A stretch of 64,000 nucleotides of DNA. It comes from an uncultured Planctomycetales bacterium. Lineage in GTDB: Bacteria > Omnitrophota > Gorgyraeia > Zapsychrales > Fredricksoniimonadaceae. How positions within the stretch are numbered: position 1 is the stretch's first letter; the number at the start of each line of letters is the position of its first letter. Below, piece by piece: positions 49,540 through 62,547 of the stretch. Made by a program: the position numbers and the translations under genes. The DNA lies in assembly GCA_964572155.1 (NCBI GenBank), contig CAZNDZ010000001.1, positions 1,082,732 through 1,146,731 of the forward strand. The letters run 5' to 3'. Under the pieces are notes generated by a model, which saw nothing but the letters and a program-made list of their open reading frames with translations, searched no databases and was not told where the DNA came from.

Positions 49540-49978
49540 TGAATTGTATCAACAAACCATTTTAGAACATAACCGTCATCCACGTAATTTTCGTAAAATG
49601 GATGATGCGACTTATTTTGCCGAAGGGTATAATCCTTTGTGTGGGGATCATTTGTGGGTTTATGTGAAATTAAATGACCAATCACAAATCCAAGAGGCAA
49701 GTTTTGAAGGTTCTGGTTGTGCGATTTCTAAAGCATCAGCTTCGATGATGACAACCGCGTTAAAAGGTAAGACGATTGAAGAGGCCAATGTTTTGTTTCA
49801 AGAGTTTCATGATCTTGTTCAAGGTAAGCTTGATCCACAAAAGCAAACCAATCATTTAGATAAGCTAGCTGTATTCTCCGGTATTTGGCAATACCCATCA
49901 CGTGTTAAATGTGCTTCCTTAGGCTGGCATACCATGCATGCGGCGTTAGAAAAGCGCCCAAGTGTTTCTACAGAATGA
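49532..49978 (+). CDS. sufU: SufU-type (IscU-like, Zn-dependent) sulfur-transfer scaffold protein
   Basis: Conserved Cys/Asp ligands (NPLCGDH, GSGCAISKAS, C-terminal KCASL). Confidence 0.8.
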   Translation: MRDELYQQTILEHNRHPRNFRKMDDATYFAEGYNPLCGDHLWVYVKLNDQSQIQEASFEGSGCAISKASASMMTTALKGKTIEEANVLFQEFHDLVQGKLDPQKQTNHLDKLAVFSGIWQYPSRVKCASLGWHTMHAALEKRPSVSTE

Positions 49979-50979
49979 TCCTAGATCAATTTAAAAGACC
50001 TTTAAGAGATTTGCGCATATCCGTAATCGATCGATGCAATTTTCGTTGCCCTTATTGCATGCCTTCAAAGAAGTATGACCATGCCTATCAATTCTTAGAT
50101 AAAAATGAATGGTTGACTTTTGATGAGATCGAGCGCGTAGCACGTATCTTTGTAAGCCTTGGTGTTAAAAAATTGCGCCTTACTGGCGGTGAGCCATTAT
50201 TACGCCCAGATATCGATCAATTGATCGTAAAGTTAAATGCGATACATGGTGTAGAAGATCTGGCATTAACCACCAATGGTTCACATTTGGCAGCGTTAGC
50301 TAAGCGATTAAAAGCATCAGGATTAAAACGCCTCACAGTAAGCCTCGATACATTAGACCCAATAATTTTTAAGCAGTTAAATGGTGATCGTGGCGAGATT
50401 GATCAGGTTCTTTTGGGAATTGATGCCGCAGCAGCGGCAGGGTTTAAGCGCATTAAGATCAATGTAGTCATCATTCGTGGGGTAAATGATCAGGGGGTTT
50501 TAGACTTGGTTAAGCATTTTAGAGGTACGGGCCATGTGCTGCGTTTCATCGAATATATGGATGTAGGGAATCAAAATAACTGGTCTATAAATCAGGTTGT
50601 AATGTCCCAGGAAATTATAAATTTGGTGAACCAGAATTTTCCCTTGATTAAAGTTGGTGGGACTGAGAGGGGAGATACGTCGCAGCGATACAGCTATGTT
50701 GATGGGGCTGGGGATATTGAGTTTATCTCGTCAGTAAGTCATGCTTTTTGTGGCACATGCAATCGTTTAAGGTTATCTGTTGACGGTAAAATATATACAT
50801 GTTTATTTGCATCACATGGGGTTGATTTAAAAGCCGCATTAAAAGAGCATCAATCCGATGATTTTCTTAAGAAAATCATTGCAGATGTTTGGCAGGCGCG
50901 TGTTGATCAATATTCACAAGAAAGATCGCGTCTTCAATCCATTCGTTCTAAGGTCGAAATGTTCCATATTGGTGGATAA
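49975..50979 (+). CDS. moaA: GTP 3',8-cyclase MoaA (radical SAM, molybdopterin biosynthesis)
   Basis: CNFRCPYCMP radical-SAM motif and C-terminal CGTCNRLRL second cluster. The ATG overlaps the sufU stop (ATGA). Confidence 0.85.
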   Translation: MILDQFKRPLRDLRISVIDRCNFRCPYCMPSKKYDHAYQFLDKNEWLTFDEIERVARIFVSLGVKKLRLTGGEPLLRPDIDQLIVKLNAIHGVEDLALTTNGSHLAALAKRLKASGLKRLTVSLDTLDPIIFKQLNGDRGEIDQVLLGIDAAAAAGFKRIKINVVIIRGVNDQGVLDLVKHFRGTGHVLRFIEYMDVGNQNNWSINQVVMSQEIINLVNQNFPLIKVGGTERGDTSQRYSYVDGAGDIEFISSVSHAFCGTCNRLRLSVDGKIYTCLFASHGVDLKAALKEHQSDDFLKKIIADVWQARVDQYSQERSRLQSIRSKVEMFHIGG

Positions 50980-51012: not shown

Positions 51013-51055
51013 TAATTGTGGATAAAATAATCCATAATTGAGGAATCAAAGAACT

Positions 51056-51466
51056 ATGATAAAAATGTATTCAAAAAATTGTGAACATATGTTGCGCATA
51101 TTTAGTCAAATCTCACAAGACAATTATGCACAGGTATTCTTGGCAAAAGAAATCTGCCGAAAAGCAAAAGTTCCAGAATTCTCTGCTCGCAAAGGCTTGC
51201 AATTGTTGGTCCAACATAAGATTCTAAAAGCTGTGTCTGGTCCTGGGGGTGGTTATCAACTTATTAAACATCCTAAGAAAATACAGTTATTAGATATTAT
51301 AGAAGTCATTGATGGAAAAGAATTAAATTTACATTGTGTCATGGGTTTTCCTCAATGTAATGGGCAACAACCTTGTCCAATGCATGATGTTTGGAAAGAT
51401 ATAAAGGGAAGATTGTTGTGTGAGCTTGAGAAAAAGTCTTTATTTAATGTGATGAAAAGGAACTAA
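51056..51466 (+). CDS. Rrf2-family regulator with three C-terminal Cys (NsrR-like NO/nitrosative-stress regulator candidate)
   Basis: Rrf2 wHTH N-terminus. C-terminal Cys spacing (CVMGFPQCNGQQPC) resembles NsrR/IscR cluster ligation. Context: heads the nitrate/nitrite gene cluster. Confidence 0.65.
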   Translation: MIKMYSKNCEHMLRIFSQISQDNYAQVFLAKEICRKAKVPEFSARKGLQLLVQHKILKAVSGPGGGYQLIKHPKKIQLLDIIEVIDGKELNLHCVMGFPQCNGQQPCPMHDVWKDIKGRLLCELEKKSLFNVMKRN

Positions 51467-51469
51467 CTA

Positions 51470-52801
51470 ATGAAAATCATTCTACTTTTAGTGGTATTTG
51501 TCTTTTCTGATTCTTGCTTTGTACATGCTGGTGAATATATGAATACGCATCTGCCTAAGTGGGTAAATGTTGATCTGCAATTACGACATCGTTATGAATG
51601 GCGTTCAAATTTTGACTTTAATGATAATGTTTACGATAAGGATGGGTTTAATTTGTGGAGAGCGCGTTTAGGAGTAACGCTTAAACCGTCAGATGACTTT
51701 AAGTTCTTTTATCAGTTCCAAGATGCACGTATTTCAGATGACTCCACCACAGGTTCTAAGGCGACTTTTGAGAATTGGTTAGACACGAGACAGCTATGGG
51801 CAGAAGCCAAAACAAATAAACTTGCCATTGATGCCATTGATTTTTCTAAAGTAGGTATTCGTTTTGGACGTCAGGAATTAGCTTATGGAGCCCAACGGTT
51901 GTTAGGGGCTATTGATTGGTCAAATGTGGCTCAAACATTTGATGCGGGAAAAGTGATGTTGGAATTTGAGAAACAGAAATTAAATATTGATATTTTTGGG
52001 GGCGGAAAAACCCCTGTTAAATCACCGCTTGAACAAGATGATATTTTTGATGGATCGTCTAATGATTGGGTGGGTGGTTACTATGCCACCTATAAAGGAA
52101 TTGATAATTATACCATTGAACATTATGTCATTAATCGTAATACGGATGGTCAAATCATTTCTTTTGGGCAAACCGGCGATGGGGAAGTTGATGATTATAC
52201 GATAGGGGGACGTATAGCAGGTAAGATTGCAGATACTGCTTTTGATTTTGAATTAGAAGCGGCTAAGCAGGTGGGTAATTCTGGTGCCTTAGATGCTGAT
52301 GCACAAATGGCCATAGCGATCTTAGGTTATACGTTCGACATAAACTGGAAACCTCGCGTATCACTAGAATTTGATTATGCGTCTGGAGATGGTAATAGGA
52401 CTGATGGTAAGCGTCAGACGTTTAATAATATTCATCCAACAAACCATCTCTATTATGGTTATATGGATTTTGTGAGCCTTCAAAATATGAATGATTACCG
52501 GCTCGGGATCAAAGTGGATCCAACAAAGAAGCTAAACATTCAATCAGATTTGCATATGATTTTTCTTGATTCACCTAAAGATAATCTTTATGGTGCTAAC
52601 AAGGCTATAAAAAGAGCCACAGTGGCTAGTGCTGATGCTTATGTAGGTAATGAAGTGGATCTTTTGGCGAAGTATCAATTTAATAGTTATGTCAGCACTA
52701 TGGTAGGTTATTCACATCTTTTTGCGGGTGATTTCCTTAAAGACACAGGTTCATCTGATGATGCTGATTTTGTCTATGTTCAAACGGTTGTTAATTTCTA
52801 A
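51470..52801 (+). CDS. Outer-membrane alginate-export (AlgE-like) family porin, paralogue 2
   Basis: Signal peptide. RHRYEWR and FGRQELAYGAQRLLG motifs. C-terminal ...VVNF. Same length (443 aa) as paralogue 1. Confidence 0.7.
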   Translation: MKIILLLVVFVFSDSCFVHAGEYMNTHLPKWVNVDLQLRHRYEWRSNFDFNDNVYDKDGFNLWRARLGVTLKPSDDFKFFYQFQDARISDDSTTGSKATFENWLDTRQLWAEAKTNKLAIDAIDFSKVGIRFGRQELAYGAQRLLGAIDWSNVAQTFDAGKVMLEFEKQKLNIDIFGGGKTPVKSPLEQDDIFDGSSNDWVGGYYATYKGIDNYTIEHYVINRNTDGQIISFGQTGDGEVDDYTIGGRIAGKIADTAFDFELEAAKQVGNSGALDADAQMAIAILGYTFDINWKPRVSLEFDYASGDGNRTDGKRQTFNNIHPTNHLYYGYMDFVSLQNMNDYRLGIKVDPTKKLNIQSDLHMIFLDSPKDNLYGANKAIKRATVASADAYVGNEVDLLAKYQFNSYVSTMVGYSHLFAGDFLKDTGSSDDADFVYVQTVVNF

Positions 52802-52818: not shown

Positions 52819-53871
52819 GTGATAATCCGTTTGCATAAAGAGGGTTTGAGAAATGGCCTAATAGGATCTGCAGTTTTAGTGGGCTTGGTTCTCTTGGGGT
52901 CGCGGCGTTTATTATATTTTGATGCTGCTTTAACGCCGTATTTGTATGCGACGATATTTGCCATTTTTGGCAGTATTTATCGTTATAGTGTCTGGGTTAG
53001 TCGTCCTCCAACAGAGATTCTACTTAAACGAAGTTTACAGTTTGTTTTTAGCCGTAATTTCTTTAAATATTTCATCCTTGTATTTAAAACTTTCATCGAG
53101 CAGATTGTTTTACAAAAGTTTATTGGTCGACGTAGTCCGTATCGATGGGTAATGCATTTTTGTTTGGCGTGGGGATGTTTGTTGGCCTTCGCCGTAACCT
53201 TCCCGTTGGTCTTTGGATGGTTGCATTTTGAGAACCCCATAGAGCATAAAGATTTGTACCAATTGGTTGTGTTTGGGTTTCCGTTACAAATCTTTAATCC
53301 TGAAGGGATTGTTGGATTTCTTTTCTTTAATGCATTAAATTTTTGTTCGCTACTAATCATTGTTGGGACTGTGATGGCATTTTCTCGTCGATTTCTTCAT
53401 CCTGGTGAAATGGCAATTCAATCTTTTGCGCATGATTTGCTGCCGCTCTTGGTCTTGTTTTCAGTTGCAGTAACGGGTTTGTTTTTAACGTATAGCAACC
53501 ATTTTTTAGGCGGTGCTCATTATAGGGTATTAACGACCATTCATTGTTGGACGGTTGTCATGTTGTTGGTTTATTTACCATTTGGAAAGTTTTTTCATAT
53601 TTTTCAAAGAGCAGCTCAAATGGGTGCCGCTTTATATATTGAAGAGAAGGAATGTGGTAAACCAGCTTTATGTATAAAATGTCAACAGCCCTTTACAAGT
53701 GACATGCAAAAAGAAGATGTGAAGAAAGTTTTATCTGACTTAGGCTTTCAATTCCAAGGAGATGATAAAAATTCATCGATGCAGGATTTATGCCCTTTAT
53801 GTCGACGACATATGATGATGGTGACTCAGCATCAGCATTTAAAGGGTAAGTTTGATATTGATCATCGTTAA
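52819..53871 (+). CDS. Polytopic membrane protein, NarI/DsrM/HdrE-like di-heme cytochrome b candidate with a C-terminal Cys-rich (CxxC...CxxC) cytoplasmic tail
   Basis: GTG start. 5-6 TM helices with intramembrane His residues (VMHFCLAWG, IHCW...FHIFQR). Tail CIKCQQPF...CPLCRRH. Confidence 0.5.
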   Translation: MIIRLHKEGLRNGLIGSAVLVGLVLLGSRRLLYFDAALTPYLYATIFAIFGSIYRYSVWVSRPPTEILLKRSLQFVFSRNFFKYFILVFKTFIEQIVLQKFIGRRSPYRWVMHFCLAWGCLLAFAVTFPLVFGWLHFENPIEHKDLYQLVVFGFPLQIFNPEGIVGFLFFNALNFCSLLIIVGTVMAFSRRFLHPGEMAIQSFAHDLLPLLVLFSVAVTGLFLTYSNHFLGGAHYRVLTTIHCWTVVMLLVYLPFGKFFHIFQRAAQMGAALYIEEKECGKPALCIKCQQPFTSDMQKEDVKKVLSDLGFQFQGDDKNSSMQDLCPLCRRHMMMVTQHQHLKGKFDIDHR

Positions 53872-53886
53872 TTAACGGAGCCTCAT

Positions 53887-56070
53887 ATGGCAGAATTGCC
53901 TTTATCAAAAGAGAAAATTGCTGAACAGTTTGGTCCTCATTTGAAATATGACCCACCAGGTGGCTGGGAGCTTTCTGTCAGCGAGCCTGATGCTAAGGTA
54001 AAGACGCATTGTTGTTTTTGTGGTCAGGGTTGTGGGATCATTTTAAAAGTACAAAATAATCAGGTGGTTGGTTTTGATCCTTGGGAAGCTTTTCCTTTTA
54101 ATCAGGGGAAGCTATGTCCCAAGGGAGTTAAGCGATATATGCAAGGTAGCCATCCAGACCGTTTGATGTATCCGATGGAAAATCGTCAGGGTGTTGGGTA
54201 TGAACGTATAAGTTGGGATGATGCTTACACAAAAGTGATTGATGCCATACAGCGCATTCAAGGTGAGCATGGTAAGGATGCATTTGCGCTGCTTTCCGGT
54301 GTTTCATTGTCGAATGAGAAATCGTATTTGATTGGAAAGTTTGCGCGTGTGGCTTTGCAAACAGCAAACCTTGATTATAACGGTCGTTTGTGCATGGTGT
54401 CGGCTGGTGCTGGCAATAAAAAATCTTTTGGCATTGATCGTGCGGCCAATTCATGGGCGGATATTTTAGAGACGGATCTAATTGTCTGCGCGGGCACAAA
54501 CGTATCCGAATGTTCACCCATCACAACCGATTATATTTGGAAAGCCCGTGATAAAAGGGGTGCTAAACTTATTGTCATTGATCCGCGCATGACGCCCATC
54601 GCGCGAACAGCGGATTTATACTTACCTGTGCGTCCCGGTACTGATGTGTACTTAGCAAATACGATCTTGAATTTAATGATACAAGCGGGGCATATTGATG
54701 AAGCATTCATTCGCGAGCATACGACGGGCTTTGAAGATGTTAAAGCAGGGGTTGCTAAATACACACCTGAAGATTGTGAGAAGGTTACCGGTGTTCCAGC
54801 GGCCAATATAAGAAAGGCTGCGCTATGGTGGGGTGAGGCTAAACGCAGCTTTTTATTACACGCGCGGGGTATAGAACATCACACCAAGGGTGTCGATAAT
54901 GTTTGTTCATATATTAACATGGTTTTAGCGTCAGGCCGCATTGGACGCGTTGGTTGTGGGTATGGAACAATTACCGGACAAGGCAATGGCCAAGGTGGTC
55001 GTGAACAAGGACATAAATGCGATCAACTTCCAGGGAACCGCGACATCACTAATCCTGAACATCGAAAATATGTTGCTGGGGTTTGGGGCATTGATGAAAA
55101 AGATATGCCTGGTAAGGGATTGTCTGCTCAAGAGATCATGAACGATATTCATGCGGGTAAGATTAAAGGTCTACTAAGCATTTGTTTTAATCCTTTAGTA
55201 AGTCTTCCAGATCAACAATTCACAGAAGAGGCATTAAAGAAATTAGATTTTTATGTGGCTATTGATTTCTTCTTAAATGAAACAGCTCGGTATGCGGATG
55301 TGATCTTACCAGGTTCTTTGCATGAAGAAGATGAGGGAACGGCTACCACAGCGGAAGGGCGAGTTATTCGGATTCAAGCAGCTGTAACGCCACCTGGCGA
55401 GGCAAAGATTGATTGGCATATATTTCAAGACTTGGCTAAGCGATTAGATAAACAAAAGTATTTTGATTTTAAGACTTCCGAAGATATTTTTAATGAAATG
55501 CGGGTTGCCTCTCATGGAGGCACAGCGGATTATTATGGGATTACTTATGAGATGATTGAGAAAAATATGGGGGTATTTTGGCCCTGTCCGGAAATTGGGC
55601 ATCCTGGAACGCCACGTTTATTCGAAGGTGGGAAGTTTTATCATCCAGATGGAAAAGCTCATTTTAATGCAGTGGAATATCGCTTATCCGCTGATCTTAT
55701 TAATGAGGAGTATCCAATTTATTTAACAACCGGGCGTGTGATCTTTCAATATTTATCAGGGACCCAGACAAGGCGTATTGGTTTCTTAGTTGATCAATGC
55801 CCTGAACCATATGTTGAAATTCATCCGATCTTAGCAGATAAGCATGGGATTAAAGAGGGTGATCAGGTGAAGGTTACATCTAGGAGAGCGGATATTTTAT
55901 TAAAAGCTAAAGTTGTTAAGACAATTCGTCCTGATACTGTTTTTGTTCCGTATCATTGGCCAGATGCTAAATCTGTCAATCGATTGACGCAGCGTGCCTT
56001 AGACCCTATTTCTAAAATCCCAGAATTCAAATTTAGCGCAGTCAGAATTGAGAAGGTAAATTTTACATAA
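53887..56070 (+). CDS. Molybdopterin (bis-PGD) oxidoreductase catalytic subunit, Nap/Nas-type nitrate-reductase-like, without a signal peptide
   Basis: N-terminal 4Fe-4S motif (HCCFCGQGCG...LCPKG). Putative Mo-ligand Cys (NGRLCMVSAGAG). Contains TGQGNGQGGRE. The C-terminal region has an MGD-binding barrel. No RR/Sec N-terminus. Confidence 0.75.
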   Translation: MAELPLSKEKIAEQFGPHLKYDPPGGWELSVSEPDAKVKTHCCFCGQGCGIILKVQNNQVVGFDPWEAFPFNQGKLCPKGVKRYMQGSHPDRLMYPMENRQGVGYERISWDDAYTKVIDAIQRIQGEHGKDAFALLSGVSLSNEKSYLIGKFARVALQTANLDYNGRLCMVSAGAGNKKSFGIDRAANSWADILETDLIVCAGTNVSECSPITTDYIWKARDKRGAKLIVIDPRMTPIARTADLYLPVRPGTDVYLANTILNLMIQAGHIDEAFIREHTTGFEDVKAGVAKYTPEDCEKVTGVPAANIRKAALWWGEAKRSFLLHARGIEHHTKGVDNVCSYINMVLASGRIGRVGCGYGTITGQGNGQGGREQGHKCDQLPGNRDITNPEHRKYVAGVWGIDEKDMPGKGLSAQEIMNDIHAGKIKGLLSICFNPLVSLPDQQFTEEALKKLDFYVAIDFFLNETARYADVILPGSLHEEDEGTATTAEGRVIRIQAAVTPPGEAKIDWHIFQDLAKRLDKQKYFDFKTSEDIFNEMRVASHGGTADYYGITYEMIEKNMGVFWPCPEIGHPGTPRLFEGGKFYHPDGKAHFNAVEYRLSADLINEEYPIYLTTGRVIFQYLSGTQTRRIGFLVDQCPEPYVEIHPILADKHGIKEGDQVKVTSRRADILLKAKVVKTIRPDTVFVPYHWPDAKSVNRLTQRALDPISKIPEFKFSAVRIEKVNFT

Positions 56071-56079
56071 AGAGATAAC

Positions 56080-56697
56080 ATGACCGAGAATTTTCTAGAA
56101 GAGAATGACTTTTTTATAGATCCTCAACGATGTATCGGTTGCAAGGCCTGTGAAGCGGCATGCTCTGAGTGTGCCACTCATCGGGGAGTTCCGATGATCC
56201 ACTTGGATACACTTGATCGGTATAATACCGTTAAGACCGGTCCTACCGTTTGCATGCATTGTGACGATCCGGCGTGCGCTTCGGTCTGTCCAGCGGATGC
56301 GATCAAGCGTACGGAAGATGGAGTTGTTCAATCTTCTCAAAAACCCAGATGCATTGGATGTTCTAATTGTCAAATTGCCTGTCCTTTTGGTGTGCCTAAG
56401 GTTTATAAACTTCAAGCCCAAATGATGAAATGTGATATGTGTTATGATAGGACCTCCATTGGTTTGAAACCCATGTGCGCCACTGTTTGCCCTTCGCAGG
56501 CGTTGTATTTTGGTCCGAAATCGTTTATTGAATCAACACGCAAGAATATCCCTAATAATCAATTTATTTTTGGAAAACAAAAGATAAAAACAAAAGTGTA
56601 CATGATGATGGACACGGCAGATGTTCCAACTGATATGGATGTTGTTAATTTCATGAGTTCTTGTCATTTAGAAGAAGGCGAAGCGTGGGTTTTATAA
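56080..56697 (+). CDS. Four-cluster [4Fe-4S] ferredoxin-like electron-transfer subunit (DmsB/NrfC/PsrB-like)
   Basis: Four Cys groups: [41 protein letters not shown]...CATVCP. No signal peptide. Confidence 0.8.
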
Positions 56698-56714
56698 TCA
56701 AATATAGGTGAGAT

Positions 56715-57251
56715 ATGAATGAACCAATTAAGAAGCGTCTGATTAAGAAGCATGGTCAATTGCCTAAATGGGCGGAAGATTTCTCCATTGAGTCATCGAC
56801 GGATAACAATGTTTCCCGTAGAGATTTTATTCGTTTTCTAGGCCTTGTTTCTTTTGGGCTTTTTATGGGGACAGCAGGTGTTTTTGTAAGATCTTTATTT
56901 GAACAAGCTCAAGCGCCATCAATGGAAGATAAAATTGCTGGTCTTAATGAAATTGCTGTAGGTGAGTCACGTTCTTTTATGATTCCAGGAAAAAGAGAGC
57001 CAGGGATCATGGTTCGTTTAGGTGATGATCGATACGTGGCGTATGGCCAGAAATGCACACATTTGCAATGCCCTGTATTATGGAGTAAAGAAGAAAATAA
57101 ATTGGTATGTCCGTGTCATAATGGTGCTTTTGCTGTTGAGGATGGGCATGTCCTATATGGCCCTCCAGAGCGACCATTACCACAATTAGAATTAGCTGTT
57201 AAACATGATGGCATATATTTTGTAGGTGTAAAAAGTGGCAATTTAGTTTAG
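56715..57251 (+). CDS. Rieske [2Fe-2S] protein with a twin-arginine signal/anchor
   Basis: Tat motif SRRDFIRFLG followed by a hydrophobic helix. Rieske boxes CTHLQC and CPCHNG. Confidence 0.8.
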   Translation: MNEPIKKRLIKKHGQLPKWAEDFSIESSTDNNVSRRDFIRFLGLVSFGLFMGTAGVFVRSLFEQAQAPSMEDKIAGLNEIAVGESRSFMIPGKREPGIMVRLGDDRYVAYGQKCTHLQCPVLWSKEENKLVCPCHNGAFAVEDGHVLYGPPERPLPQLELAVKHDGIYFVGVKSGNLV

Positions 57252-57264
57252 TTAAGAGGAAATT

Positions 57265-57552
57265 ATGAAATTTCGTGATACCAGAGAAGAAACTAAGAAA
57301 ACTATAGAAATTGTTTGTCTAATACTTTCACTAGGCTGTATTTTTCTTCAAATCTGGATTATGGCCACAACGTTAGAATCTTTTTTTCAAGGTAAAACGC
57401 ATCATTTACTGGCGTCTGTAATGCTAAGTATGATTGCTTTTGGTGTTTGTGCGTTAACTGCTTGGACAACGAGTATGAATCTTTTAAAAGGGTCTGAAGA
57501 AGGGCGAACACAAACGTATCATAAAGACACTCAATATAAGAAAATTCTATAG
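57265..57552 (+). CDS. Small two-TM membrane protein (95 aa), uncharacterised
   Basis: ORF with two hydrophobic helices. Sits between the Rieske gene and narK. Confidence 0.4.
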   Translation: MKFRDTREETKKTIEIVCLILSLGCIFLQIWIMATTLESFFQGKTHHLLASVMLSMIAFGVCALTAWTTSMNLLKGSEEGRTQTYHKDTQYKKIL

Positions 57553-59046
57553 GTGCTTATGCAAGATCAAGCAACATCTCAATCCCACAGAGTATTATTC
57601 TTAAATACACTAGCGTTTACGGTGTGTTTTGCTGCCTGGATGCTTAATGGTGTTCTAGTTACGTTCTTATCGAGCAATCAAATATTTAATTGGGGACCGG
57701 TTGAGATGGGTTGGCTTTTGGGTATTCCTGTTTTGACGGGCTCAATTTTTCGTTTGCCAGCTGGAATGCTCACAGATAAATTTGGAGGTAAACCTGTTTT
57801 TGGAACATTGCTTTTGTTGTGTGCAGTCCCAATGTATCTTTTGTCAACCGTCGATAGTTTTATAGGTTTTGCTTGGTGTAGTTTTGGTTTTGGATTAGTG
57901 GGCGTTGGTTTTTCGATTGGTATAGCTTTTTCATCCGTATGGTATCCGAAACAATTACAGGGCACTGCATTGGGAATTTTTGGAGCAGGCAATGCTGGTG
58001 CTGCGATAACGACACTATTAGCACCAAAGCTGCTTAATATTTTTACGCAGAATGGTGCCAATCTTGAAGGGTGGAGAATTCTACCTAAGTGTTATGCGGT
58101 AATGCTTTTTGTAACAGGAATTATTATCTTTGTTTTTTCGATTAACAAAAAGCCTGAATCACAATCAAAGACGTTTATTCAAATGCTTGAGCCACTTAAA
58201 AATATTCGTGTTTGGCGTTTTGGATTTTATTACTTTCTAGTATTTGGTTGTTTTGTTGGTTTTTCGCAATGGTTAGTGCCTTATTTTGTCAGTGCATATT
58301 ATATGCCTTTAGTGACTGCAGGTATTTTGGTTTCTTGTTTTAGTTTTCCTTCTGGGGTTATTCGTGCTGCTGGTGGATGGATTTCAGATCGATGGGGAGC
58401 GCGTAAGGTTATGTATTGGGTTTTAGGTTCATCAACTTTTATTAGCTTTATGCTGATTGTTCCTCAAATGGATATTTATTCTCCTGGAGAGGGTGTCATG
58501 GCTTTTCAGCCGGGTATTGTAACATCTGTCAGTGCGAAAGAAATTGTCGTTGGTGATAAAACGTATGCATTGGCAGAAAAAATTGAACATAAGAATAATT
58601 ATGAAAAAGATGTTTTGGTTCTTCCTACTAAGGAGATTTGGCAGGAACCTTTGGTTCTGGTTGGTCAGAAAGTTCAGAAAAAAGAGCTTTTGGCTAAGGG
58701 TGTTACGCGTATTTATTTTCAAGCAAATGTATGGGTGTTTACATTCTTGGTATTTATATTGGGTGTTATTTGGGGTATAGGAAAAGCAGCAGTTTATAAA
58801 CATATTCCAGACTATTTTCCTAACGAAGTTGGGGTTGTAGGTGGTATGGTGGGGGTATTAGGTGGTTTAGGTGGTTTTGTTTGTCCTATTATATTTGGTT
58901 ATTTACTGAAAGGGACAGGTTTATGGACGAGCTGTTGGATGCTGATGTTTGTCTTGTCCATTATATGTCTTTTGTGGATGCATGCTGTTATCAGTGCCAT
59001 GATGCAAGCTAAGCATCCTGAATCTAGAAAGTTAATCGAACATTAA
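57553..59046 (+). CDS. narK: MFS nitrate/nitrite transporter (NarK family) with a ~90-aa hydrophilic insertion between TM helices
   Basis: MFS topology. Gly-rich NarK-type motifs (GGKPVFG, GIFGAGNAG). Inserted segment PGEGVMAFQPG...RIYFQANV. Confidence 0.75.
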   Translation: MLMQDQATSQSHRVLFLNTLAFTVCFAAWMLNGVLVTFLSSNQIFNWGPVEMGWLLGIPVLTGSIFRLPAGMLTDKFGGKPVFGTLLLLCAVPMYLLSTVDSFIGFAWCSFGFGLVGVGFSIGIAFSSVWYPKQLQGTALGIFGAGNAGAAITTLLAPKLLNIFTQNGANLEGWRILPKCYAVMLFVTGIIIFVFSINKKPESQSKTFIQMLEPLKNIRVWRFGFYYFLVFGCFVGFSQWLVPYFVSAYYMPLVTAGILVSCFSFPSGVIRAAGGWISDRWGARKVMYWVLGSSTFISFMLIVPQMDIYSPGEGVMAFQPGIVTSVSAKEIVVGDKTYALAEKIEHKNNYEKDVLVLPTKEIWQEPLVLVGQKVQKKELLAKGVTRIYFQANVWVFTFLVFILGVIWGIGKAAVYKHIPDYFPNEVGVVGGMVGVLGGLGGFVCPIIFGYLLKGTGLWTSCWMLMFVLSIICLLWMHAVISAMMQAKHPESRKLIEH

Positions 59047-59047: not shown

Positions 59048-60670
59048 GTGTCAGTGTTAAATGGAGAACAAGTTATGTTAAAAGTTAATATTGAGCATTG
59101 GAATGTCGAAGATGAAAAATTTTGGCAAGAAGAAGGGATGCCTGTTGCTTCACGAAATCTTTGGATATCCATACCAGCTTTGTTGCAGTCATTTTCTATT
59201 TGGATCATGTGGGGTATGATCATTGTTCAGATGAAGAAGTTAGGCTTTACGCTTGGCATGCCGCATCAGACGCCAGAAGATTTAAAAATTTTTAATGAGT
59301 TGTTGTGGACGTTACCAGCGATCGCTGGTCTTTCCGGAGCTACACTGAGAATACCAAATTCTTTTTTAATTGCGATTGGCGGGGGCAGAAATGTGGTTTT
59401 CTTGTCAACGATCTTTCTTTTGATTCCTTCTGTTTTGGCTGGCTTTGCGCTTCAAAATATTAATACATCTTATGCGGTTTTCGCGATCATTGCTGTATTG
59501 TCGGGTTTTGGTGGTGGAAATTTTGCGTCGTCGATGTCTAATATTTCATTCTTTTTTCCAAAGCGCATGCAAGGGACCGCGTTGGGTTTAAACGCTGGGC
59601 TTGGAAATCTGGGTGTTAGTGTCATGCAATTCTTGATTCCTATTGTCATCACGTCAGGTTTTTTCGGTGGCATAGGAGGATCAGGATTGCCTTTAACAGA
59701 AACGGATGGTAGTAAAGCCATAGGCACCTTAGTGTTCTTATCGAATGCTGGTTGGGTTTGGGTAGTATTTTTAAGTATTTCTGCCTGCGCGGCATTTTTT
59801 GGGATGAACAATTTAAAGGCAGCGACACCAACGCTTGGCAATACGATGCAGGAGTTTTTTAAGATAATTCTTTTGGTGAGTTTTGGTTTGTTGGCAGCTG
59901 GCATTGGTGCGTATCTCTTAACCGCTCTAAAAATTAATATGTGGATTGTTCTTCCCGCAACAATCATTTTAGCTCTTGTCCTGATGAGATTTCTTTCTCC
60001 AAAGGAGATTCAAGGAAGTTTGAATAAGCAGTTTTCGATTTTTGCTAATAAACATAATTGGATCATGACCATCCTTTATGTCATGACCTTTGGTTCTTTT
60101 ATTGGGTACTCAGCATCATTTCCTAAGTTGATCCAAGATGTTTTTGGGTATTTACCAGGGGGGGCTGTTAATCCAAACGCTCCAAATCCTATGGTTTGGG
60201 CATTCTTGGGTCCGTTGGTCGGAGCATTGATTCGGCCATTTGGGGGATGGTTAGGTGATAAGATTAATAGTGGATCGAAAGTGACCACATGGAGCACTGT
60301 CGTACAAGTATTTGCAGCCTTAGGTGTGGCCTATTACATCGTGCAAGCTAAAGCAGCTGCTTCTCCAGAAACGTATTGGTGGCCATTCTTTACATTATTT
60401 ATGGTTTTATTCGTAGCAACAGGTCTTGGCAATGGTTCAACATTTAGGAGTATTCCTTATATCTTTCCAAAAGAATTGGCTGGTCCTGTACTTGGATGGA
60501 CATCTGCTATAGCCGCGTATGGCGCTTTTATTATTCCAATTGTTTTCGGGCAGCAAATTAAAGCCGGCCATGCTGAGTACGCACTTTACGGGTTTACAAT
60601 TTATTACGTTATTTGTCTTTTTTTAAATTGGTATTACTATGACAGGAAGAATTCAGGAATTCAGTGTTAA
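59048..60670 (+). CDS. narK: MFS nitrate/nitrite transporter (NarK family), second paralogue (540 aa)
   Basis: NarK N-terminal signature (EDEKFWQEEGMPVASRNLWIS) and nitrate signature-like Gly motifs (GFGGGNFASSM). Confidence 0.8.
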   Translation: MSVLNGEQVMLKVNIEHWNVEDEKFWQEEGMPVASRNLWISIPALLQSFSIWIMWGMIIVQMKKLGFTLGMPHQTPEDLKIFNELLWTLPAIAGLSGATLRIPNSFLIAIGGGRNVVFLSTIFLLIPSVLAGFALQNINTSYAVFAIIAVLSGFGGGNFASSMSNISFFFPKRMQGTALGLNAGLGNLGVSVMQFLIPIVITSGFFGGIGGSGLPLTETDGSKAIGTLVFLSNAGWVWVVFLSISACAAFFGMNNLKAATPTLGNTMQEFFKIILLVSFGLLAAGIGAYLLTALKINMWIVLPATIILALVLMRFLSPKEIQGSLNKQFSIFANKHNWIMTILYVMTFGSFIGYSASFPKLIQDVFGYLPGGAVNPNAPNPMVWAFLGPLVGALIRPFGGWLGDKINSGSKVTTWSTVVQVFAALGVAYYIVQAKAAASPETYWWPFFTLFMVLFVATGLGNGSTFRSIPYIFPKELAGPVLGWTSAIAAYGAFIIPIVFGQQIKAGHAEYALYGFTIYYVICLFLNWYYYDRKNSGIQC

Positions 60671-60671
60671 C

Positions 60672-61136
60672 ATGATCGAAAATAGAAAATATTTCTTTGC
60701 CGTATTATCAATTTGTTTAGGTCTTTTGCTAGGGTTATCTGTGTATATATTCTTTTACGCAAAAGGTTATTCATATCTTGTTAACGATCCAAAGGCTTGC
60801 GCTAATTGTCATATTATGCAGGATTATTATGATTCTTGGGTTAGGTCAAGCCATCATAAGGCAGCGTCGTGCAATGATTGTCACGTTCCGCATCAGCCTG
60901 TCATGAAATATTTATCAAAAGCGAAGAATGGCTATAACCATTCAAGGGCTTTTACGATGCAAGATTTTAAAGAACCAATTCGAATTACAAAAACAAATCT
61001 GATTGATTTACAACATAATTGCATAGAGTGCCACGCAACGTTAACGAGTGAGATTACCGCGCATAAAGATGTTGAACAGGGACAGGCTAGGTGCACTTCG
61101 TGTCACCGCTCATCTGGCCACATGAGATTAGATTAA
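60672..61136 (+). CDS. nrfH: Tetraheme cytochrome c quinol dehydrogenase NrfH (NapC/NirT family)
   Basis: N-terminal TM helix plus four CxxCH motifs (CANCH, CNDCH, CIECH, CTSCH). The ATG at 60672 directly follows the narK stop. Confidence 0.85.
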   Translation: MIENRKYFFAVLSICLGLLLGLSVYIFFYAKGYSYLVNDPKACANCHIMQDYYDSWVRSSHHKAASCNDCHVPHQPVMKYLSKAKNGYNHSRAFTMQDFKEPIRITKTNLIDLQHNCIECHATLTSEITAHKDVEQGQARCTSCHRSSGHMRLD

Positions 61137-61152
61137 TATTTTGGAGGTTATT

Positions 61153-62547
61153 ATGAAGAAGACATTGCCATATGTAGGAATAATTTTTGTGACTGCAGTT
61201 TTGACAGGTTTATTGGTATCGTTTTTTATGAATATTAAAGAACGGAAAGATGAAACGAAAGTGCAGCATGTCAATGTGGTCCAATTAAATGAAGAAATTA
61301 CAGATCCTGCCGTATGGGGGCAAAATTATCCTAGAGAATATGACGGATATAAGAAAACAGCACTTAAAACACATACGCGCTATGGGGGCAGTGAAGGTAT
61401 TTCAAAATTAGATACAGATCCAAACTTAAAGACAATTTTTGCAGGGTATGCATTTAGCGTTGATTATAAAACTCGTCGTGGTCATTATTATTCTTTAATT
61501 GATCAGCAAGAAACAGAAAGGGTTAAGAAATTTAAACAAGTGGGTAATTGCATGCATTGTCATGCAGAGGGCTTAAAGGCAATTTATGAAAAAGTAGGCA
61601 ATGGGGATATGATGGCTGGTTTTGATAAGGTGGCAAGCATGCCGCTTCAGGAGGCTTGGAAGTTTGCAGAACATCCTGTGGCATGTGTTGATTGCCATGA
61701 TCCAAAGACAATGAATTTACGAGTTACACGTCCAGCGTTCTTAAAAGCAATTGAAAAACTAAAGGAAAAAGAAGGTATTCAAAAGTATAATCCAAATGAG
61801 GTAGCTACCCGTCAAGAAATGCGTACGTTCGTATGTGCTCAATGCCATGTGGAATACTATTGTGGGAGTAAGGAAAAAATATTTTACCCTTGGGATAATG
61901 GGTTAAAAGTTGAAGAGATTGAGGCATTTTATGATAAGTTTAAGTTTAAAGATGGTAAACGTTTCTTTGATTTTAAACATGAAATAACAGGTGCTGAAGT
62001 TATCAAAGCGCAGCATCCAGAATTTGAACTTTACAGTCAAGGGATTCATGCTAAGAGTGGTGTTGCATGTGCAGATTGTCACATGCCTTATGTAAGAGAA
62101 GGTGCAGTGAAGATCACAGATCATTATGTCCGTAGTCCTTTGCTCAATGTTGCAAAAGCATGTTTACAGTGTCATCACTTCACAGAAAAAGAAATGATTG
62201 ATCGTGTGGAAACAATACAAGATCGTACCTTTAAGCTACAAAATCGTGCAGAAGAAGCTGTGGTTGCCTTGATTAAAGCAGTGGCTGAATTAAAGAAAAA
62301 TGGCATGACAGACGAAGAGTTATTGCCTTTGCATGAATTGCAGCGAAAAGCACAATGGCGTGTAGATTTTATAAATGCTGAGAATTCTATGGGTTTTCAT
62401 GCTCCACAAGAGGCTGCGCGCATTCTAGCGGAATCAATTGATTATGCAAGGCAAGGTGAAGTTCAGGCTCAAGCTTTACTTTCAAAACATTCGACAAAAA
62501 CGGATTTAGTAAAAGAAACAACAGAGAAGAGGGAAGAAGCAAAATAA
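61153..62547 (+). CDS. nrfA: Pentaheme cytochrome c nitrite reductase NrfA (all five haem motifs CxxCH, no CxxCK)
   Basis: GGAGG RBS. CMHCH, CVDCH, CAQCH, CADCH, CLQCH, plus the RRGHYY region conserved in NrfA. Confidence 0.9.
   Translation: MKKTLPYVGIIFVTAVLTGLLVSFFMNIKERKDETKVQHVNVVQLNEEITDPAVWGQNYPREYDGYKKTALKTHTRYGGSEGISKLDTDPNLKTIFAGYAFSVDYKTRRGHYYSLIDQQETERVKKFKQVGNCMHCHAEGLKAIYEKVGNGDMMAGFDKVASMPLQEAWKFAEHPVACVDCHDPKTMNLRVTRPAFLKAIEKLKEKEGIQKYNPNEVATRQEMRTFVCAQCHVEYYCGSKEKIFYPWDNGLKVEEIEAFYDKFKFKDGKRFFDFKHEITGAEVIKAQHPEFELYSQGIHAKSGVACADCHMPYVREGAVKITDHYVRSPLLNVAKACLQCHHFTEKEMIDRVETIQDRTFKLQNRAEEAVVALIKAVAELKKNGMTDEELLPLHELQRKAQWRVDFINAENSMGFHAPQEAARILAESIDYARQGEVQAQALLSKHSTKTDLVKETTEKREEAK

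What the first reader, a model, noticed from the sequence alone, without database searches (positions are those of the whole stretch)
52819..57552. Atypical nitrate reductase module: signal-less Nap/Nas-like Mo subunit teamed with a 4-cluster ferredoxin, a Tat-Rieske protein, a NarI-like cytochrome b and a small TM protein
The catalytic subunit (727 aa) has features of the NapA/NasA/NarB clade: an N-terminal C-x2-C-x3-C...C cluster, a Cys Mo-ligand motif (GRLCMVSAGAG) and TGQGNGQGGRE. It has no Tat or Sec signal. It is flanked by a DmsB-type four-cluster FeS subunit, a Rieske protein with a clear twin-arginine signal/anchor (SRRDFIRFLG; Rieske boxes CTHLQC and CPCHNG), and a His-rich polytopic membrane protein resembling NarI-type di-haem cytochrome b with a C-terminal CxxC...CxxC tail. 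This subunit combination is neither NarGHI, NapAB/GH nor NasA/NirBD. It most resembles the Rieske plus cytochrome b pNar arrangement of haloarchaea, but with a Nap/Nas-type catalytic subunit. The signal-less Mo subunit next to a Tat-Rieske is also reminiscent of the arsenite oxidase AioAB hitchhiking arrangement. Context supports nitrate respiration feeding dissimilatory reduction to ammonium: two narK genes, nrfHA, and NsrR-like, MOSC and nnrS genes. It could be an undescribed quinol:nitrate oxidoreductase, or a different oxyanion reductase.
Basis: partly seen in the sequence, partly recalled or inferred. Interest (0 to 1): 0.75.

Follow-up and report, generated by a model that had tools for sequence, protein, structure and literature searches.

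The report
Membrane-bound NasC-type nitrate reductase with Rieske
Five tightly packed genes encode an unnamed, widely distributed nitrate reductase whose catalytic subunit is related to assimilatory (NasC) enzymes but which is wired to the membrane through a four-cluster ferredoxin, a NarI-like cytochrome b, a Tat-exported Rieske protein and a tiny membrane protein, so it fits none of the three textbook classes (Nar, Nap, Nas).

Summary
Window 52819-57552 holds five co-directional genes 1-18 nt apart: a NarI-like cytochrome b (350 aa), a signal-less Mo-bisPGD subunit (727 aa), a four-cluster FeS protein, a twin-arginine Rieske protein and a 2-TM DUF6755 protein. narK1, narK2, nrfHA, MOSC and nnrS follow.

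The same unit occurs in 78 of 83 related loci; the other five are cut contigs. The loci span Omnitrophota, Elusimicrobiota, Armatimonadota, Acidobacteriota, Verrucomicrobiota, Myxococcota, Deinococcus (on a plasmid) and many cultured Bacteroidota, including Flavobacterium johnsoniae.

The Mo subunit has the Nas/Nap active-site signature, not the formate-dehydrogenase one. Its family is a 200/200-supported sister of true NasC. True NasC pairs with NasB and NirBD, which none of 84 loci has nearby.

Best reading: a quinol-oxidising, probably cytoplasm-facing nitrate reductase that works like NarGHI, here feeding NrfA-type ammonification. Orientation and the role of the periplasmic Rieske centre remain unresolved.

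Two papers noticed the cluster in passing, calling it assimilatory and respiratory respectively. I found no name, no specific annotation and no biochemistry. I rate it a new variant of a known kind, testable in F. johnsoniae.

The parts
52819..53871 (+). NarI-like cytochrome b membrane subunit (350 aa, about 6 TM helices, N-in and C-in). It has a periplasmic beta-hairpin insert and a conserved cytoplasmic C-terminal domain of about 90 aa.
53887..56070 (+). Catalytic Mo-bisPGD subunit (727 aa) of the NasC lineage, Cys-ligated, with an N-terminal [4Fe-4S] motif and no signal peptide.
   Evidence: Pfam. NCBIfam NasC 833 bits (cut-off 1100) against Fdh-alpha 616 and NapA 284. Active-site alignment. 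NJ tree with 200/200 support.
56080..56697 (+). Four-cluster [4Fe-4S] electron-transfer subunit (205 aa), DmsB/FdnH/NarH-type, soluble, no signal.
   Evidence: Fer4_11 6e-22; DmsB and FDH-beta models about 1e-28, below their cut-offs. Four conserved Cys groups.
56715..57251 (+). Membrane-anchored Rieske [2Fe-2S] protein (178 aa) with a conserved cytoplasmic N-segment (W..DFP), a twin-arginine motif, one TM helix and a bc-type Rieske domain that keeps the disulfide cysteines.
   Evidence: Pfam Rieske. Best matches are bc1 and b6f Rieske proteins, ahead of AioB. The RR motif and both boxes are kept across phyla, with one box-1 substitution in L023. Charge distribution indicates N-in, C-out.
57265..57552 (+). 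DUF6755 small membrane subunit (95 aa, 2 TM helices, conserved Q-[ILV]-W in TM1).
   Evidence: Pfam DUF6755. It follows the Rieske gene directly in 78 of 84 loci. Alignment.
57553..59046 (+). NarK-family transporter 1 (497 aa, with an insertion of about 85 aa).
   Evidence: TIGR00886 NarK 2.5e-51, match split in two. Homologue present in most loci.
59048..60670 (+). NarK-family transporter 2 (540 aa, NarU/NarK-like).
   Evidence: PRK15034 5e-89; TIGR00886 1e-81.
60639..61136 (+). NrfH, the NapC/NirT-type tetrahaem quinol dehydrogenase.
   Evidence: Pfam Cytochrom_NNT.
61141..62547 (+). NrfA, the pentahaem cytochrome c552 nitrite reductase (periplasmic, ammonia-forming).
   Evidence: Pfam Cytochrom_C552 1e-129.
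62552..62998 (+). MOSC-domain protein.
   Evidence: Pfam MOSC. It follows the narK genes in six Omnitrophota loci.
62999..64000 (+). NnrS (haem/copper membrane protein of NO-stress regulons); it runs off the window.
   Evidence: Pfam NnrS 5e-76.
51038..51466 (+). Rrf2-family regulator (NsrR/IscR-like), the likely first gene of the operon.
   Evidence: Pfam Rrf2. Promoter-like site at 51000-51028.
51470..52801 (+). Outer-membrane porin of the Alginate_exp family.
   Evidence: Pfam 1.7e-68. Also next to the cluster in L004, L006 and L011.
49909..50979 (+). MoaA (molybdenum cofactor biosynthesis).
   Evidence: TIGR02666 7e-115, above its cut-off.

Best explanation
The five genes encode one membrane-bound nitrate reductase complex.

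Shown:
- The catalytic subunit is a Cys-ligated Mo-bisPGD enzyme of the NasC lineage with the nitrate-reductase active-site signature.
- It always travels with a four-cluster FeS protein, a NarI-fold cytochrome b, a Tat-type membrane-anchored Rieske protein and a DUF6755 2-TM protein.

Inferred mechanism:
- Menaquinol is oxidised at the periplasmic face of the cytochrome b, at a site that probably involves the periplasmic Rieske centre.
- Protons are released outside the cell.
- Electrons cross the membrane through the haems: H136/H242 on the outer side, H113/H260 on the inner side.
- They enter the four [4Fe-4S] clusters of the cytoplasmic FeS subunit, which docks on the conserved cytoplasmic C-terminal domain of the cytochrome b.
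- They then reach FS0 and the Mo centre, where nitrate imported by NarK is reduced to nitrite with uptake of cytoplasmic protons.
- This is a redox loop that works like NarGHI but is built from a Nas-type catalytic subunit.

In this Omnitrophota genome, nitrite would be exported (nitrate/nitrite antiport by one NarK) and reduced to ammonium in the periplasm by the co-transcribed NrfHA. That would make the operon a complete nitrate-ammonification unit under an Rrf2 (NsrR-like) regulator.

In other lineages the same complex sits beside denitrification genes or an assimilatory NirA. It therefore looks like a general quinol-driven nitrate reductase rather than a strictly respiratory or strictly assimilatory one.
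For: Catalytic identity.
- The window has NGRLCMVSAGAG and TGQGNGQG-GRE. NasA has NSRLCMSSAVAG and TGQPNAMG-GRE; NapA has NARHCMASA. FdhF differs: CARVUHGPS and RGQNNVQG-ACD.
- NCBIfam scores: NasC 833 bits, Fdh-alpha 616, NapA 284, NarG 68.
- The nearest sequence neighbours include proteins that pass the NasC equivalog cut-off: P0366 at 1170 bits and P0368 at 1114.
- In the NJ tree the window family, its union with the nearest relative P0361, and that clade's union with the NasC group are each recovered in 200 of 200 bootstraps. Bona fide Fdh-alpha sequences fall outside.

One complex.
- Gaps between the genes are 1-18 nt.
- 78 of 83 loci have all four larger genes and the other five are cut contigs. 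76 keep the same order.
- DUF6755 follows the Rieske gene in 78 of 84 loci.
- The nearest relative outside the family's 50%-identity cluster (P0361, 53% identical) has the same five genes.

Membrane and quinol link.
- NarI/EtfD fold.
- The helix-V histidine pair is spaced 18 residues apart, as in NarI.

Cytoplasmic active site.
- No signal on the Mo or FeS subunits in any lineage.
- NarK genes lie within 6 kb in 64 of 83 loci, and both types in 56.
- By homology with NarI, the C-terminal end of the cytochrome b is cytoplasmic, and it carries a conserved domain of about 90 aa.
- The sister clade, NasC, is cytoplasmic.

Not a classical Nas.
- No NirB or NirD homologue in 84 loci.
- True NasC (P0366) sits with a NasB-like flavoprotein, NirBD and CobA.

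Dissimilatory context.
- nrfHA is in the same gene string.
- L098 is flanked by NosZ, cytochrome c, a multicopper protein, Rrf2 and HPP.
- L001 has Crp/Fnr and NnrS beside the cluster.
- Apibacter, whose only reported 'NAR' cluster contains a Rieske gene and lacks narI, is nitrate-reduction positive. I did not check that the Apibacter cluster is the same family.
Against: - There is no biochemical or genetic evidence for any member.
- Orientation is inferred, not shown. The only targeting signal in the complex is the Rieske Tat motif, so co-export of Mo and FeS by hitchhiking cannot be excluded.
- A periplasmic Rieske centre has no obvious job in a simple Nar-like redox loop.
- Only three histidines of the cytochrome b are invariant. 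H136 is Q or R in Armatimonadota, Polyangium and one MAG, so the outer haem site is uncertain in those lineages.
- hhalign support for NarI homology is weak on its own (36% probability).
- 19 of 83 loci show no NarK within 6 kb.
- Some contexts point to assimilation: NirA upstream in L099, and a siroheme-branch methyltransferase (CobA) in 25 Flavobacterium loci.
- Substrate specificity within the Nas/Nap clade cannot be read from sequence.
Confidence: 0.6

Rival explanations
1. Same complex, opposite orientation. The folded Mo and FeS subunits bind the Rieske protein in the cytoplasm and are carried across by its Tat signal (hitchhiking, as AioA is with AioB). Nitrate would then be reduced in the periplasm, with the Rieske TM helix and the cytochrome b as anchor and quinol oxidase.
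For: - The invariant twin-arginine motif sits on the Rieske subunit, and no signal is present on Mo or FeS.
- The Rieske gene directly follows the Mo and FeS genes.
- The best-scoring NCBIfam models for the FeS subunit (DmsB, FDH-beta, HybA, HmcB) belong, from my own knowledge, to mostly periplasm-facing enzymes.
- NrfA, which consumes the nitrite, is periplasmic.
- 19 of 83 loci have no NarK nearby.
Against: - NarK1 and NarK2 are linked to the cluster in most loci.
- Characterised NarI-fold cytochromes (NarI, DsrM, HdrE, EtfD) serve cytoplasmic partners (established knowledge).
- Both haem-ligand pairs and a cytoplasmic C-terminal domain are conserved, which a periplasmic enzyme would not need.
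- The Rieske domain is closer to bc1/b6f Rieske proteins than to AioB.
- The sister clade, NasC, is cytoplasmic.
- No dedicated Tat proofreading chaperone (NapD- or NarJ-like) occurs in 84 loci.
Confidence: 0.17
2. It is an assimilatory nitrate reductase that draws electrons from the quinol pool instead of NAD(P)H or ferredoxin. The link to nrfHA in this window would be secondary.
For: - The catalytic subunit is sister to NasC.
- Heylen and Keltjens read the Bacillus bataviensis nasC, FeS and Rieske genes as an alternative assimilatory system (PMC3475470).
- A NirA-type siroheme reductase lies upstream in L099.
- CobA is in the Flavobacterium cluster.
- Many hosts are aerobes.
Against: - No NirBD in 84 loci.
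- Paired NarK1 and NarK2 genes are, from my own knowledge, typical of respiratory Nar loci.
- nrfHA, NnrS and an NsrR-like regulator are present here.
- NosZ and a NirK-like protein flank L098.
- Crp/Fnr is in L001.
- This rival concerns physiology, not mechanism. It is compatible with the best explanation for some lineages.
Confidence: 0.15
3. The Mo subunit acts on another oxyanion or substrate (chlorate, selenate, arsenite, iodate or formate), and the narK linkage is coincidental.
For: - The Nas/Nap/Aio/Fdh radiation contains several substrate classes.
- The best PDB matches are formate dehydrogenases (484 bits), because no NasC-type structure turned up in the PDB search.
- The score is below the NasC equivalog cut-off.
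Against: - The Cys-Met motif and the T..GRE arginine are the nitrate-reductase signature. The Sec/Cys-His dyad and the RGQ arginine of Fdh are absent.
- A Cys ligand is present, unlike AioA and IdrA, and the AioA model scores 175 against a cut-off of 359.
- NarK linkage in 64 of 83 loci and recurrent N-oxide contexts.
Confidence: 0.05

Closest known systems
NarGHI, the membrane-bound respiratory nitrate reductase (E. coli type)
   Same: The proposed working principle is the same. A NarI-fold cytochrome b oxidises quinol and passes electrons across the membrane to a four-cluster FeS subunit and a Mo-bisPGD subunit in the cytoplasm. NarK transporters are linked to the genes.
   Different: - The catalytic subunit is a 727-aa Cys-ligated NasC-type enzyme, not the roughly 1250-aa Asp-ligated NarG (narG model 68 bits against a cut-off of 1084).
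- The FeS subunit has 205 aa, not about 510.
- There is no NarJ.
- The cytochrome b has an extra N-terminal TM helix, a periplasmic beta insert and a cytoplasmic C-domain. It keeps only the helix-V histidine pair in register with NarI.
- It has two extra subunits, a periplasmic Rieske protein and DUF6755.
NasC/NasA/NarB assimilatory nitrate reductases (B. subtilis NasBC; Paracoccus NasC-NasG-NasB)
   Same: The catalytic subunit is the nearest relative: sister clade, 42-47% identity, same active-site motifs, no signal. Paracoccus NasC also uses a Rieske-type partner, NasG.
   Different: - Classical Nas enzymes are soluble. They take electrons from an NAD(P)H flavoprotein (NasB or NirB), ferredoxin or flavodoxin, and their genes sit with nirBD.
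- NasG/NirD is a small soluble low-potential Rieske protein, with no Tat motif, TM helix or disulfide cysteines (my own knowledge; not compared here).
- Here the partners are a four-cluster FeS protein, a cytochrome b, a Tat-anchored bc-type Rieske protein and DUF6755.
Archaeal pNar (Haloferax NarGH with NarB Rieske and NarC cytochrome b; Methanoperedens variants)
   Same: A nitrate reductase whose gene cluster contains a Rieske protein and a b-type cytochrome in place of the canonical narI arrangement.
   Different: - pNar has a Tat-exported NarG-type catalytic subunit facing outward.
- Its cytochrome b is bc1-type.
- Here the catalytic subunit is NasC-type and signal-less, and the cytochrome b is NarI-type.
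Arsenite oxidase AioAB and iodate reductase IdrAB
   Same: A Mo subunit of the same broad radiation without a signal, next to a Tat-signal Rieske subunit.
   Different: - AioA and IdrA have no amino-acid Mo ligand and carry a [3Fe-4S] cluster.
- They have no four-cluster subunit and no cytochrome b.
- They are soluble periplasmic enzymes that donate to, or accept from, cytochrome c or azurin.
- The window Rieske is closer to bc1/b6f Rieske proteins than to AioB.
Rieske/cytochrome b complexes (bc1, b6f)
   Same: A Tat-inserted, N-terminally anchored Rieske protein with the CTHLxC and CPCH boxes and the disulfide cysteines, paired with a membrane b-type cytochrome that presumably oxidises quinol at the outer face.
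   Different: - The cytochrome b is not homologous to bc1/b6f cytochrome b.
- No cytochrome c1 or f is encoded.
- The low-potential branch would end in a cytoplasmic nitrate reductase rather than a Qi site.

Membership tests
NarGHI respiratory nitrate reductase | NarG-type catalytic subunit (type II DMSO reductase family, Asp ligand, about 1200 aa) | tested here: not met
   The narG model TIGR01580 scores 68 bits against a cut-off of 1084. The Cys-Met ligand motif aligns with NasA and NapA.
NarGHI respiratory nitrate reductase | NarH beta subunit | tested here: not met
   Four Cys groups are present, but the narH model scores 42 bits against a cut-off of 524, and the protein has 205 aa.
NarGHI respiratory nitrate reductase | NarI gamma subunit: 5 TM helices, two haems b ligated by two His in helix II and two in helix V | tested here: inconclusive
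NarGHI respiratory nitrate reductase | NarJ assembly chaperone encoded in the operon | tested here: not met
   No NarJ homologue in 84 loci.
Nap periplasmic nitrate reductase | NapA with a Tat signal peptide | tested here: not met
   No RR motif in the window protein or in 16 relatives. NapA models score 273-284 bits against cut-offs of 904-930.
Nap periplasmic nitrate reductase | NapB, NapC or NapGH partners and the NapD chaperone | tested here: not met
   No NapD, NapG or NapH homologues in 84 loci. No c-type cytochrome gene lies among the five genes.
Nas assimilatory nitrate reductase (NasC equivalog) | Catalytic subunit scores above the NasC equivalog cut-off | tested here: not met
   833 bits against a cut-off of 1100. 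It is sister to proteins that do pass, with 200/200 support.
Nas assimilatory nitrate reductase (NasC equivalog) | Soluble enzyme with an NAD(P)H-flavoprotein, ferredoxin or flavodoxin donor; genes clustered with nirBD or nirA | tested here: not met
   No NirB or NirD in 84 loci. The partners are membrane and FeS subunits instead. True NasC (P0366) has NasB and NirBD beside it. One locus, L099, has a NirA-like gene upstream.
Nas/Nap-type nitrate reductase active site | Cys Mo ligand followed by Met; Thr at the FdhH Arg333 position; Arg in the G/A-R-E motif | tested here: met
   Alignment with Ralstonia and Sinorhizobium NasA, E. coli and Sinorhizobium NapA, and E. coli FdhF. The motif is invariant in the family.
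Formate dehydrogenase (Fdh-alpha / FdhF) | Sec/Cys-His dyad and the RGQ arginine; score above the Fdh-alpha cut-off | tested here: not met
   616 bits against a cut-off of 666. The motifs are absent. Bona fide Fdh-alpha sequences fall outside the clade with 200/200 support.
Arsenite oxidase AioAB | AioA without an amino-acid Mo ligand and with a [3Fe-4S] cluster; AioB Rieske with a Tat signal; no other subunits | tested here: not met
   arsenite_ox_L scores 175 against a cut-off of 359, and arsenite_ox_S 41 against 96. A Cys ligand is present. Three extra subunits are present. Only the Tat-Rieske feature is shared.
Archaeal pNar (NarGH, NarB, NarC) | Tat-exported NarG, a Rieske protein (NarB) and a bc1-type cytochrome b (NarC) | tested here: not met
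   The catalytic subunit is not NarG and carries no signal. The cytochrome b has the NarI/EtfD fold. Only the Rieske feature is shared.
Rieske/cytochrome b (bc1/b6f) complexes | bc-type Rieske: Tat motif, N-terminal anchor, CTHxxC and CPCH boxes with the disulfide Cys | tested here: met
   The QcrA model gives the best NCBIfam hit at 70 bits, below its cut-off of 275.
Rieske/cytochrome b (bc1/b6f) complexes | Cytochrome b of the bc1/b6 family and a cytochrome c1 or f | tested here: not met
   No Pfam cytochrome b hit. The fold is NarI/EtfD. No cytochrome c gene lies among the five genes.

The most novel reading that the evidence does not exclude
This is a fourth architectural class of prokaryotic nitrate reductase. 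In it, a periplasmic bc-type Rieske centre and a cytoplasmic NasC-type catalytic module share one NarI-fold cytochrome b. Quinol would be oxidised at a Rieske-dependent, Qo-like site.

Two routes for the electrons are then possible:
- Both electrons are funnelled across the membrane to nitrate.
- The pair is split, with one electron going to a periplasmic acceptor through the Rieske centre and the other going to cytoplasmic nitrate.

The second route would be a bifurcating Rieske/cytochrome b type of nitrate reductase, with energetics unlike Nar or Nap.

Because pipelines label the gene nasA/nasC ('assimilatory'), dissimilatory nitrate reduction in Bacteroidota, Omnitrophota, Armatimonadota and others would be systematically mis-scored.
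Probability: 0.2. Interest if true: 0.85.

Novelty: new variant of a known kind. Interest (0 to 1): 0.68.

Why it matters
- Textbooks divide prokaryotic nitrate reductases into Nar, Nap and Nas. This five-subunit complex combines a Nas-lineage catalytic subunit with Nar-like membrane wiring and a bc-like Rieske protein. It is common in soil, freshwater and host-associated bacteria, including cultured, genetically tractable ones.
- A published phylogenetic survey states that no member of the Fdh/Nas/Aio/Nap clade associates with a four-cluster subunit or a membrane anchor (PMC7331816). This family is a counter-example.
- Sources that name the catalytic gene call it an assimilatory nitrate reductase catalytic subunit (JGI labels). 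PGAP calls the cytochrome b an 'MFS transporter'. Metagenomic nitrogen-cycle budgets may therefore file a potentially respiratory nitrate reductase under assimilation.
- The role of an outward-facing Rieske centre in a reductase whose active site probably faces inward is an open mechanistic question. It can be tested directly in Flavobacterium johnsoniae.

Tried and rejected
- Literature. Nine full-text searches found no description or name. They covered DUF6755, Rieske plus nitrate reductase with several taxa, and phrases such as 'novel/atypical nitrate reductase'. They returned only two passing mentions. The F. johnsoniae genome paper was not held.
- Natural fusions. The Rieske homologue search found no fused proteins that would fix topology, and it reached only close relatives.
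- PDB sequence search with the cytochrome b found nothing. The fold search was needed.
- PDB search with the Mo subunit ranks formate dehydrogenases first. I judged this misleading, because no NasC-type structure appeared among the hits and the active-site motifs and HMM ranking point the other way.
- The C-terminal CxxC...CxxC tail as a conserved redox cluster is rejected. It is lost in Bacteroidota, Armatimonadota and part of Omnitrophota.
- DUF6755 as a provider of the missing haem ligand is rejected. It has no conserved His.
- Promoter and terminator scans gave fewer hits than shuffled sequence (30 promoter-like sites against a mean of 45; 11 terminator-like against 11.7) and are uninformative.
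- A multimer structure prediction could not be run, because the tool takes single chains only.
- Whole-genome co-occurrence with narG or napA could not be tested.

Full report
OBSERVATION

The five ORFs lie on the + strand at 52819-53871, 53887-56070, 56080-56697, 56715-57251 and 57265-57552. They are separated by 10-18 nt and run without a gap into narK1.

- The 727-aa protein has the three domains of a Mo-bisPGD enzyme.
- The 205-aa protein is a four-cluster ferredoxin of the DmsB/FdnH/NarH type.
- The 178-aa protein is a Rieske protein with SRRDFIRFLG, one TM helix and the boxes CTHLQC and CPCHNG.
- The 95-aa protein is a DUF6755 member with two TM helices.
- The 350-aa protein has no Pfam hit and only weak NCBIfam hits to the membrane domains of QmoC, TmcC and TcuB.

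Downstream are two NarK-family transporters, NrfH, NrfA, a MOSC protein and NnrS. Upstream are an Rrf2 regulator, an outer-membrane porin and MoaA.

THE MEMBRANE PROTEIN

A profile comparison with E. coli NarI aligns window residues 174-268 with NarI 95-212. It places H242 and H260 on the helix-V haem ligands H187 and H205, with the same 18-residue spacing and the PFxK/RxxH motif. The probability is only 36%.

Across the family H113, H242 and H260 are invariant. H136 is present in at least 90% of close relatives but is Q or R in Armatimonadota, Polyangium and one MAG.

By homology with NarI and by charge distribution, the protein has about six TM helices with both ends in the cytoplasm. It also has a conserved periplasmic beta-hairpin insert (residues 135-159) and a conserved cytoplasmic C-terminal domain of about 90 aa.

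Only C285 is invariant.

CONSERVATION

The window comes from an Omnitrophota genome; the closest locus is 97% identical. Relatives of the Mo subunit at 62-97% identity were found in 80 GTDB species genomes. They include:
- Omnitrophota, Elusimicrobiota, Acidobacteriota (Mesoterricola), Verrucomicrobiota (Limisphaerales) and Myxococcota (Polyangium);
- many cultured Bacteroidota, among them Flavobacterium johnsoniae, Algoriphagus, Mucilaginibacter, Pedobacter, Chitinophaga and Cyclobacterium;
- Armatimonadota and a Deinococcus plasmid.

Of 83 loci, 78 carry all four larger genes and the other five are truncated contigs. 76 keep the order cytochrome b, Mo, FeS, Rieske. A DUF6755 ORF follows the Rieske gene in 78 of 84 loci.

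More distant cytochrome b homologues (44-47% identity) still sit beside the same Mo, FeS and Rieske genes. So does the nearest relative of the Mo subunit outside its 50%-identity cluster (P0361, 53%). The five genes are therefore one unit, not a chance neighbourhood. The Rieske and cytochrome b genes are not borrowed from a bc complex.

WHAT THE CATALYTIC SUBUNIT IS

PDB sequence matches are led by formate dehydrogenases (484 bits), ahead of D. desulfuricans NapA (318 bits). No NasC-type structure appeared among the hits.

NCBIfam ranks NasC first, at 833 bits (below the 1100 cut-off). Fdh-alpha follows at 616 (cut-off 666), haloarchaeal NasA at 370, NapA at 284 and NarG at 68.

In an alignment with reference enzymes taken from annotated records, the window protein shares RLCM.SA and TGQ....G-GRE with NasA and NapA. 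E. coli FdhF instead has RVUHGPS and RGQ....G-ACD. The Cys-Met motif is invariant in the family.

A search of 1.84 billion cluster representatives shows that the closest sequences outside the family are NasC-like. Two of them pass the NasC equivalog cut-off (P0366 at 1170 bits, P0368 at 1114).

A neighbour-joining tree of 54 sequences over 679 columns, with 200 bootstraps, gave these supports:
- the family is monophyletic, 200/200;
- it joins P0361, 200/200;
- that clade joins the NasC group, 200/200;
- all nitrate-reductase-like sequences separate from proteins that pass the Fdh-alpha cut-off, 200/200.

The tree uses a simple distance method, so deep branching should be confirmed by likelihood methods.

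PARTNERS DIFFER FROM THE SISTER CLADE

A bona fide NasC (P0366) lies next to a NasB-like flavoprotein, NirB, NirD and CobA. Proteobacterial NasA lies next to NirBD. None of 84 loci of the window family has a NirB or NirD homologue within about 6 kb, and none has NarJ, NapD, NapG or NapH.

ORIENTATION AND MECHANISM

All of this section is inference.

The Mo subunit (conserved N-terminus MAKLP..FGPH) and the FeS subunit have no signal in any lineage.

The Rieske protein has an invariant V[ST]RR.F motif, followed by a TM helix and no conserved AxA cleavage site. A conserved W..DFP segment precedes the motif. The six cysteines and histidines of bc-type Rieske proteins are present, including the disulfide pair. 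Its domain should therefore sit in the periplasm on an uncleaved anchor, as in bc1 and b6f complexes. Its best sequence matches are bc1 and b6f Rieske proteins rather than AioB.

Four observations favour a cytoplasmic catalytic module:
- NarK genes are linked in 64 of 83 loci, and both types in 56.
- Characterised NarI-fold cytochromes serve cytoplasmic partners.
- Both haem-ligand pairs and the cytoplasmic domain of the cytochrome b are conserved.
- The sister clade is cytoplasmic.

The proposed path runs from quinol at the outer face, through the haems, to the four [4Fe-4S] clusters, FS0 and Mo, and finally to nitrate in the cytoplasm. This is a Nar-like redox loop.

The job of the periplasmic Rieske centre is not explained by that scheme. 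It may be part of the quinol-oxidising site, or an exit or entry point for periplasmic redox partners.

Export of Mo and FeS by hitchhiking on the Rieske Tat signal remains possible. I put it at about 0.17.

PHYSIOLOGY

In the window the genes are followed by narK1, narK2, nrfH, nrfA, MOSC and nnrS and preceded by an Rrf2 regulator. All are on one strand with minimal gaps. This points to nitrate ammonification, with nitrite exported to periplasmic NrfA.

Elsewhere the cluster has varied neighbours:
- NosZ, a cytochrome c, a multicopper protein, Rrf2 and an HPP protein in L098;
- Crp/Fnr and NnrS in L001;
- a NirA-like siroheme reductase in L099;
- Moco genes plus CobA in Flavobacterium.

The complex therefore appears in both dissimilatory and assimilatory settings.

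PRIOR KNOWLEDGE

DUF6755 occurs in no held paper.

Two surveys of the DMSO-reductase family treat NasC/NasA as purely assimilatory. One of them states that no member of the Fdh/Nas/Aio/Nap clade associates with a four-cluster subunit or a membrane anchor (PMC7331816, PMC10100899).

Heylen and Keltjens (2012) noted that Bacillus bataviensis nasC (729 aa) is linked to an iron-sulfur protein gene and a Rieske gene. They suggested an alternative assimilatory system (PMC3475470). I could not check that this is the same family.

A 2020 preprint on Apibacter described a 'NAR' cluster without narI that contains a Rieske gene, three narK genes and Moco genes. It is shared with Flavobacteriaceae and was read as respiratory. 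The Apibacter type strain is nitrate-reduction positive.

PGAP gives only generic names, and calls the cytochrome b an 'MFS transporter'. I found no characterisation or name.

VERDICT

It is a new variant of a known kind: a membrane-bound nitrate reductase of the NasC lineage with a subunit set not found in Nar, Nap or Nas. It is widespread and testable in cultured bacteria.

Confidence by claim:
- nitrate reductase, about 0.85;
- membrane-bound and quinol-linked, about 0.75;
- cytoplasm-facing, about 0.7;
- the whole mechanism as stated, about 0.6.

Noticed in passing
window 57553-59046 (insertion at about aa 303-391, nt 58460-58725); L043:1739-3211: NarK1 carries an insertion of about 85 aa between the two halves of the MFS fold, and the NarK HMM match splits there. 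The NarK1 encoded next to the same reductase cluster in Flavobacterium johnsoniae has a similar insert. It could be a docking or regulatory domain specific to this system.
   Followed up: partly
window 51470-52801: An outer-membrane porin gene of the Alginate_exp family lies between the Rrf2 regulator and the reductase genes. Homologues flank the cluster in other Omnitrophota loci (L004, L006, L011) and, weakly, in Algoriphagus (L021, L027). It may be a nitrate/nitrite porin.
   Followed up: partly
L084:7889-9001 (Deinococcus sp. D7000 plasmid p_2); proteins P0252, P0318, P0347: NCBI annotation names the NarI-like cytochrome b subunit 'MFS transporter'. This looks like a systematic misannotation that hides the complex. 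JGI labels some members 'nitrate reductase gamma subunit'.
   Followed up: yes
window 53650-53871 (aa 278-350 of the cytochrome b): The C-terminal CxxC...CxxC (zinc-ribbon-like) motif is present in the window, L005, L018, L082, L023 and L094. It is lost in Bacteroidota, Armatimonadota (L001) and some Omnitrophota (L010, L015), although the surrounding domain stays conserved.
   Followed up: yes
L084 (CP058536.1, 275646-282083): The whole cluster with two narK genes lies on a 338-kb Deinococcus plasmid. The Mo subunits are 62-66% identical between Omnitrophota and the distant phyla sampled. Both facts suggest horizontal spread of the unit.
   Followed up: no
L098:1-6978 and 11615-12229; L099:212-1573: The same cluster sits beside nosZ, a cytochrome c, a three-domain multicopper protein, Rrf2 and an HPP-family protein in one genome. 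In another it sits beside a NirA-type siroheme reductase. It therefore occurs in both denitrifying and assimilatory settings.
   Followed up: partly
window 62552-62998: A small MOSC-domain protein follows the narK genes here and in six other Omnitrophota loci (L002, L006, L012, L014, L015, L017). It might detoxify N-hydroxylated compounds or hydroxylamine.
   Followed up: no
window 49532-50979: The listed moaA ORF (49909-50979) overlaps the preceding 148-aa ORF (49532-49978, downstream of the sufS-like gene; not scanned) by 70 nt. The MoaA model aligns from residue 25 of the listed ORF, so the true moaA start is probably at an internal codon.
   Followed up: no
window 43725-49978: A SUF-type Fe-S assembly cluster lies directly upstream of the Moco and nitrate genes: an Nfu-like protein, a second Rrf2 regulator, then ORFs that look like sufB, sufC, sufD, sufS and sufU/E. 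Only the Nfu-like protein and the Rrf2 regulator were checked with Pfam. The whole 20-kb stretch runs on one strand.
   Followed up: no
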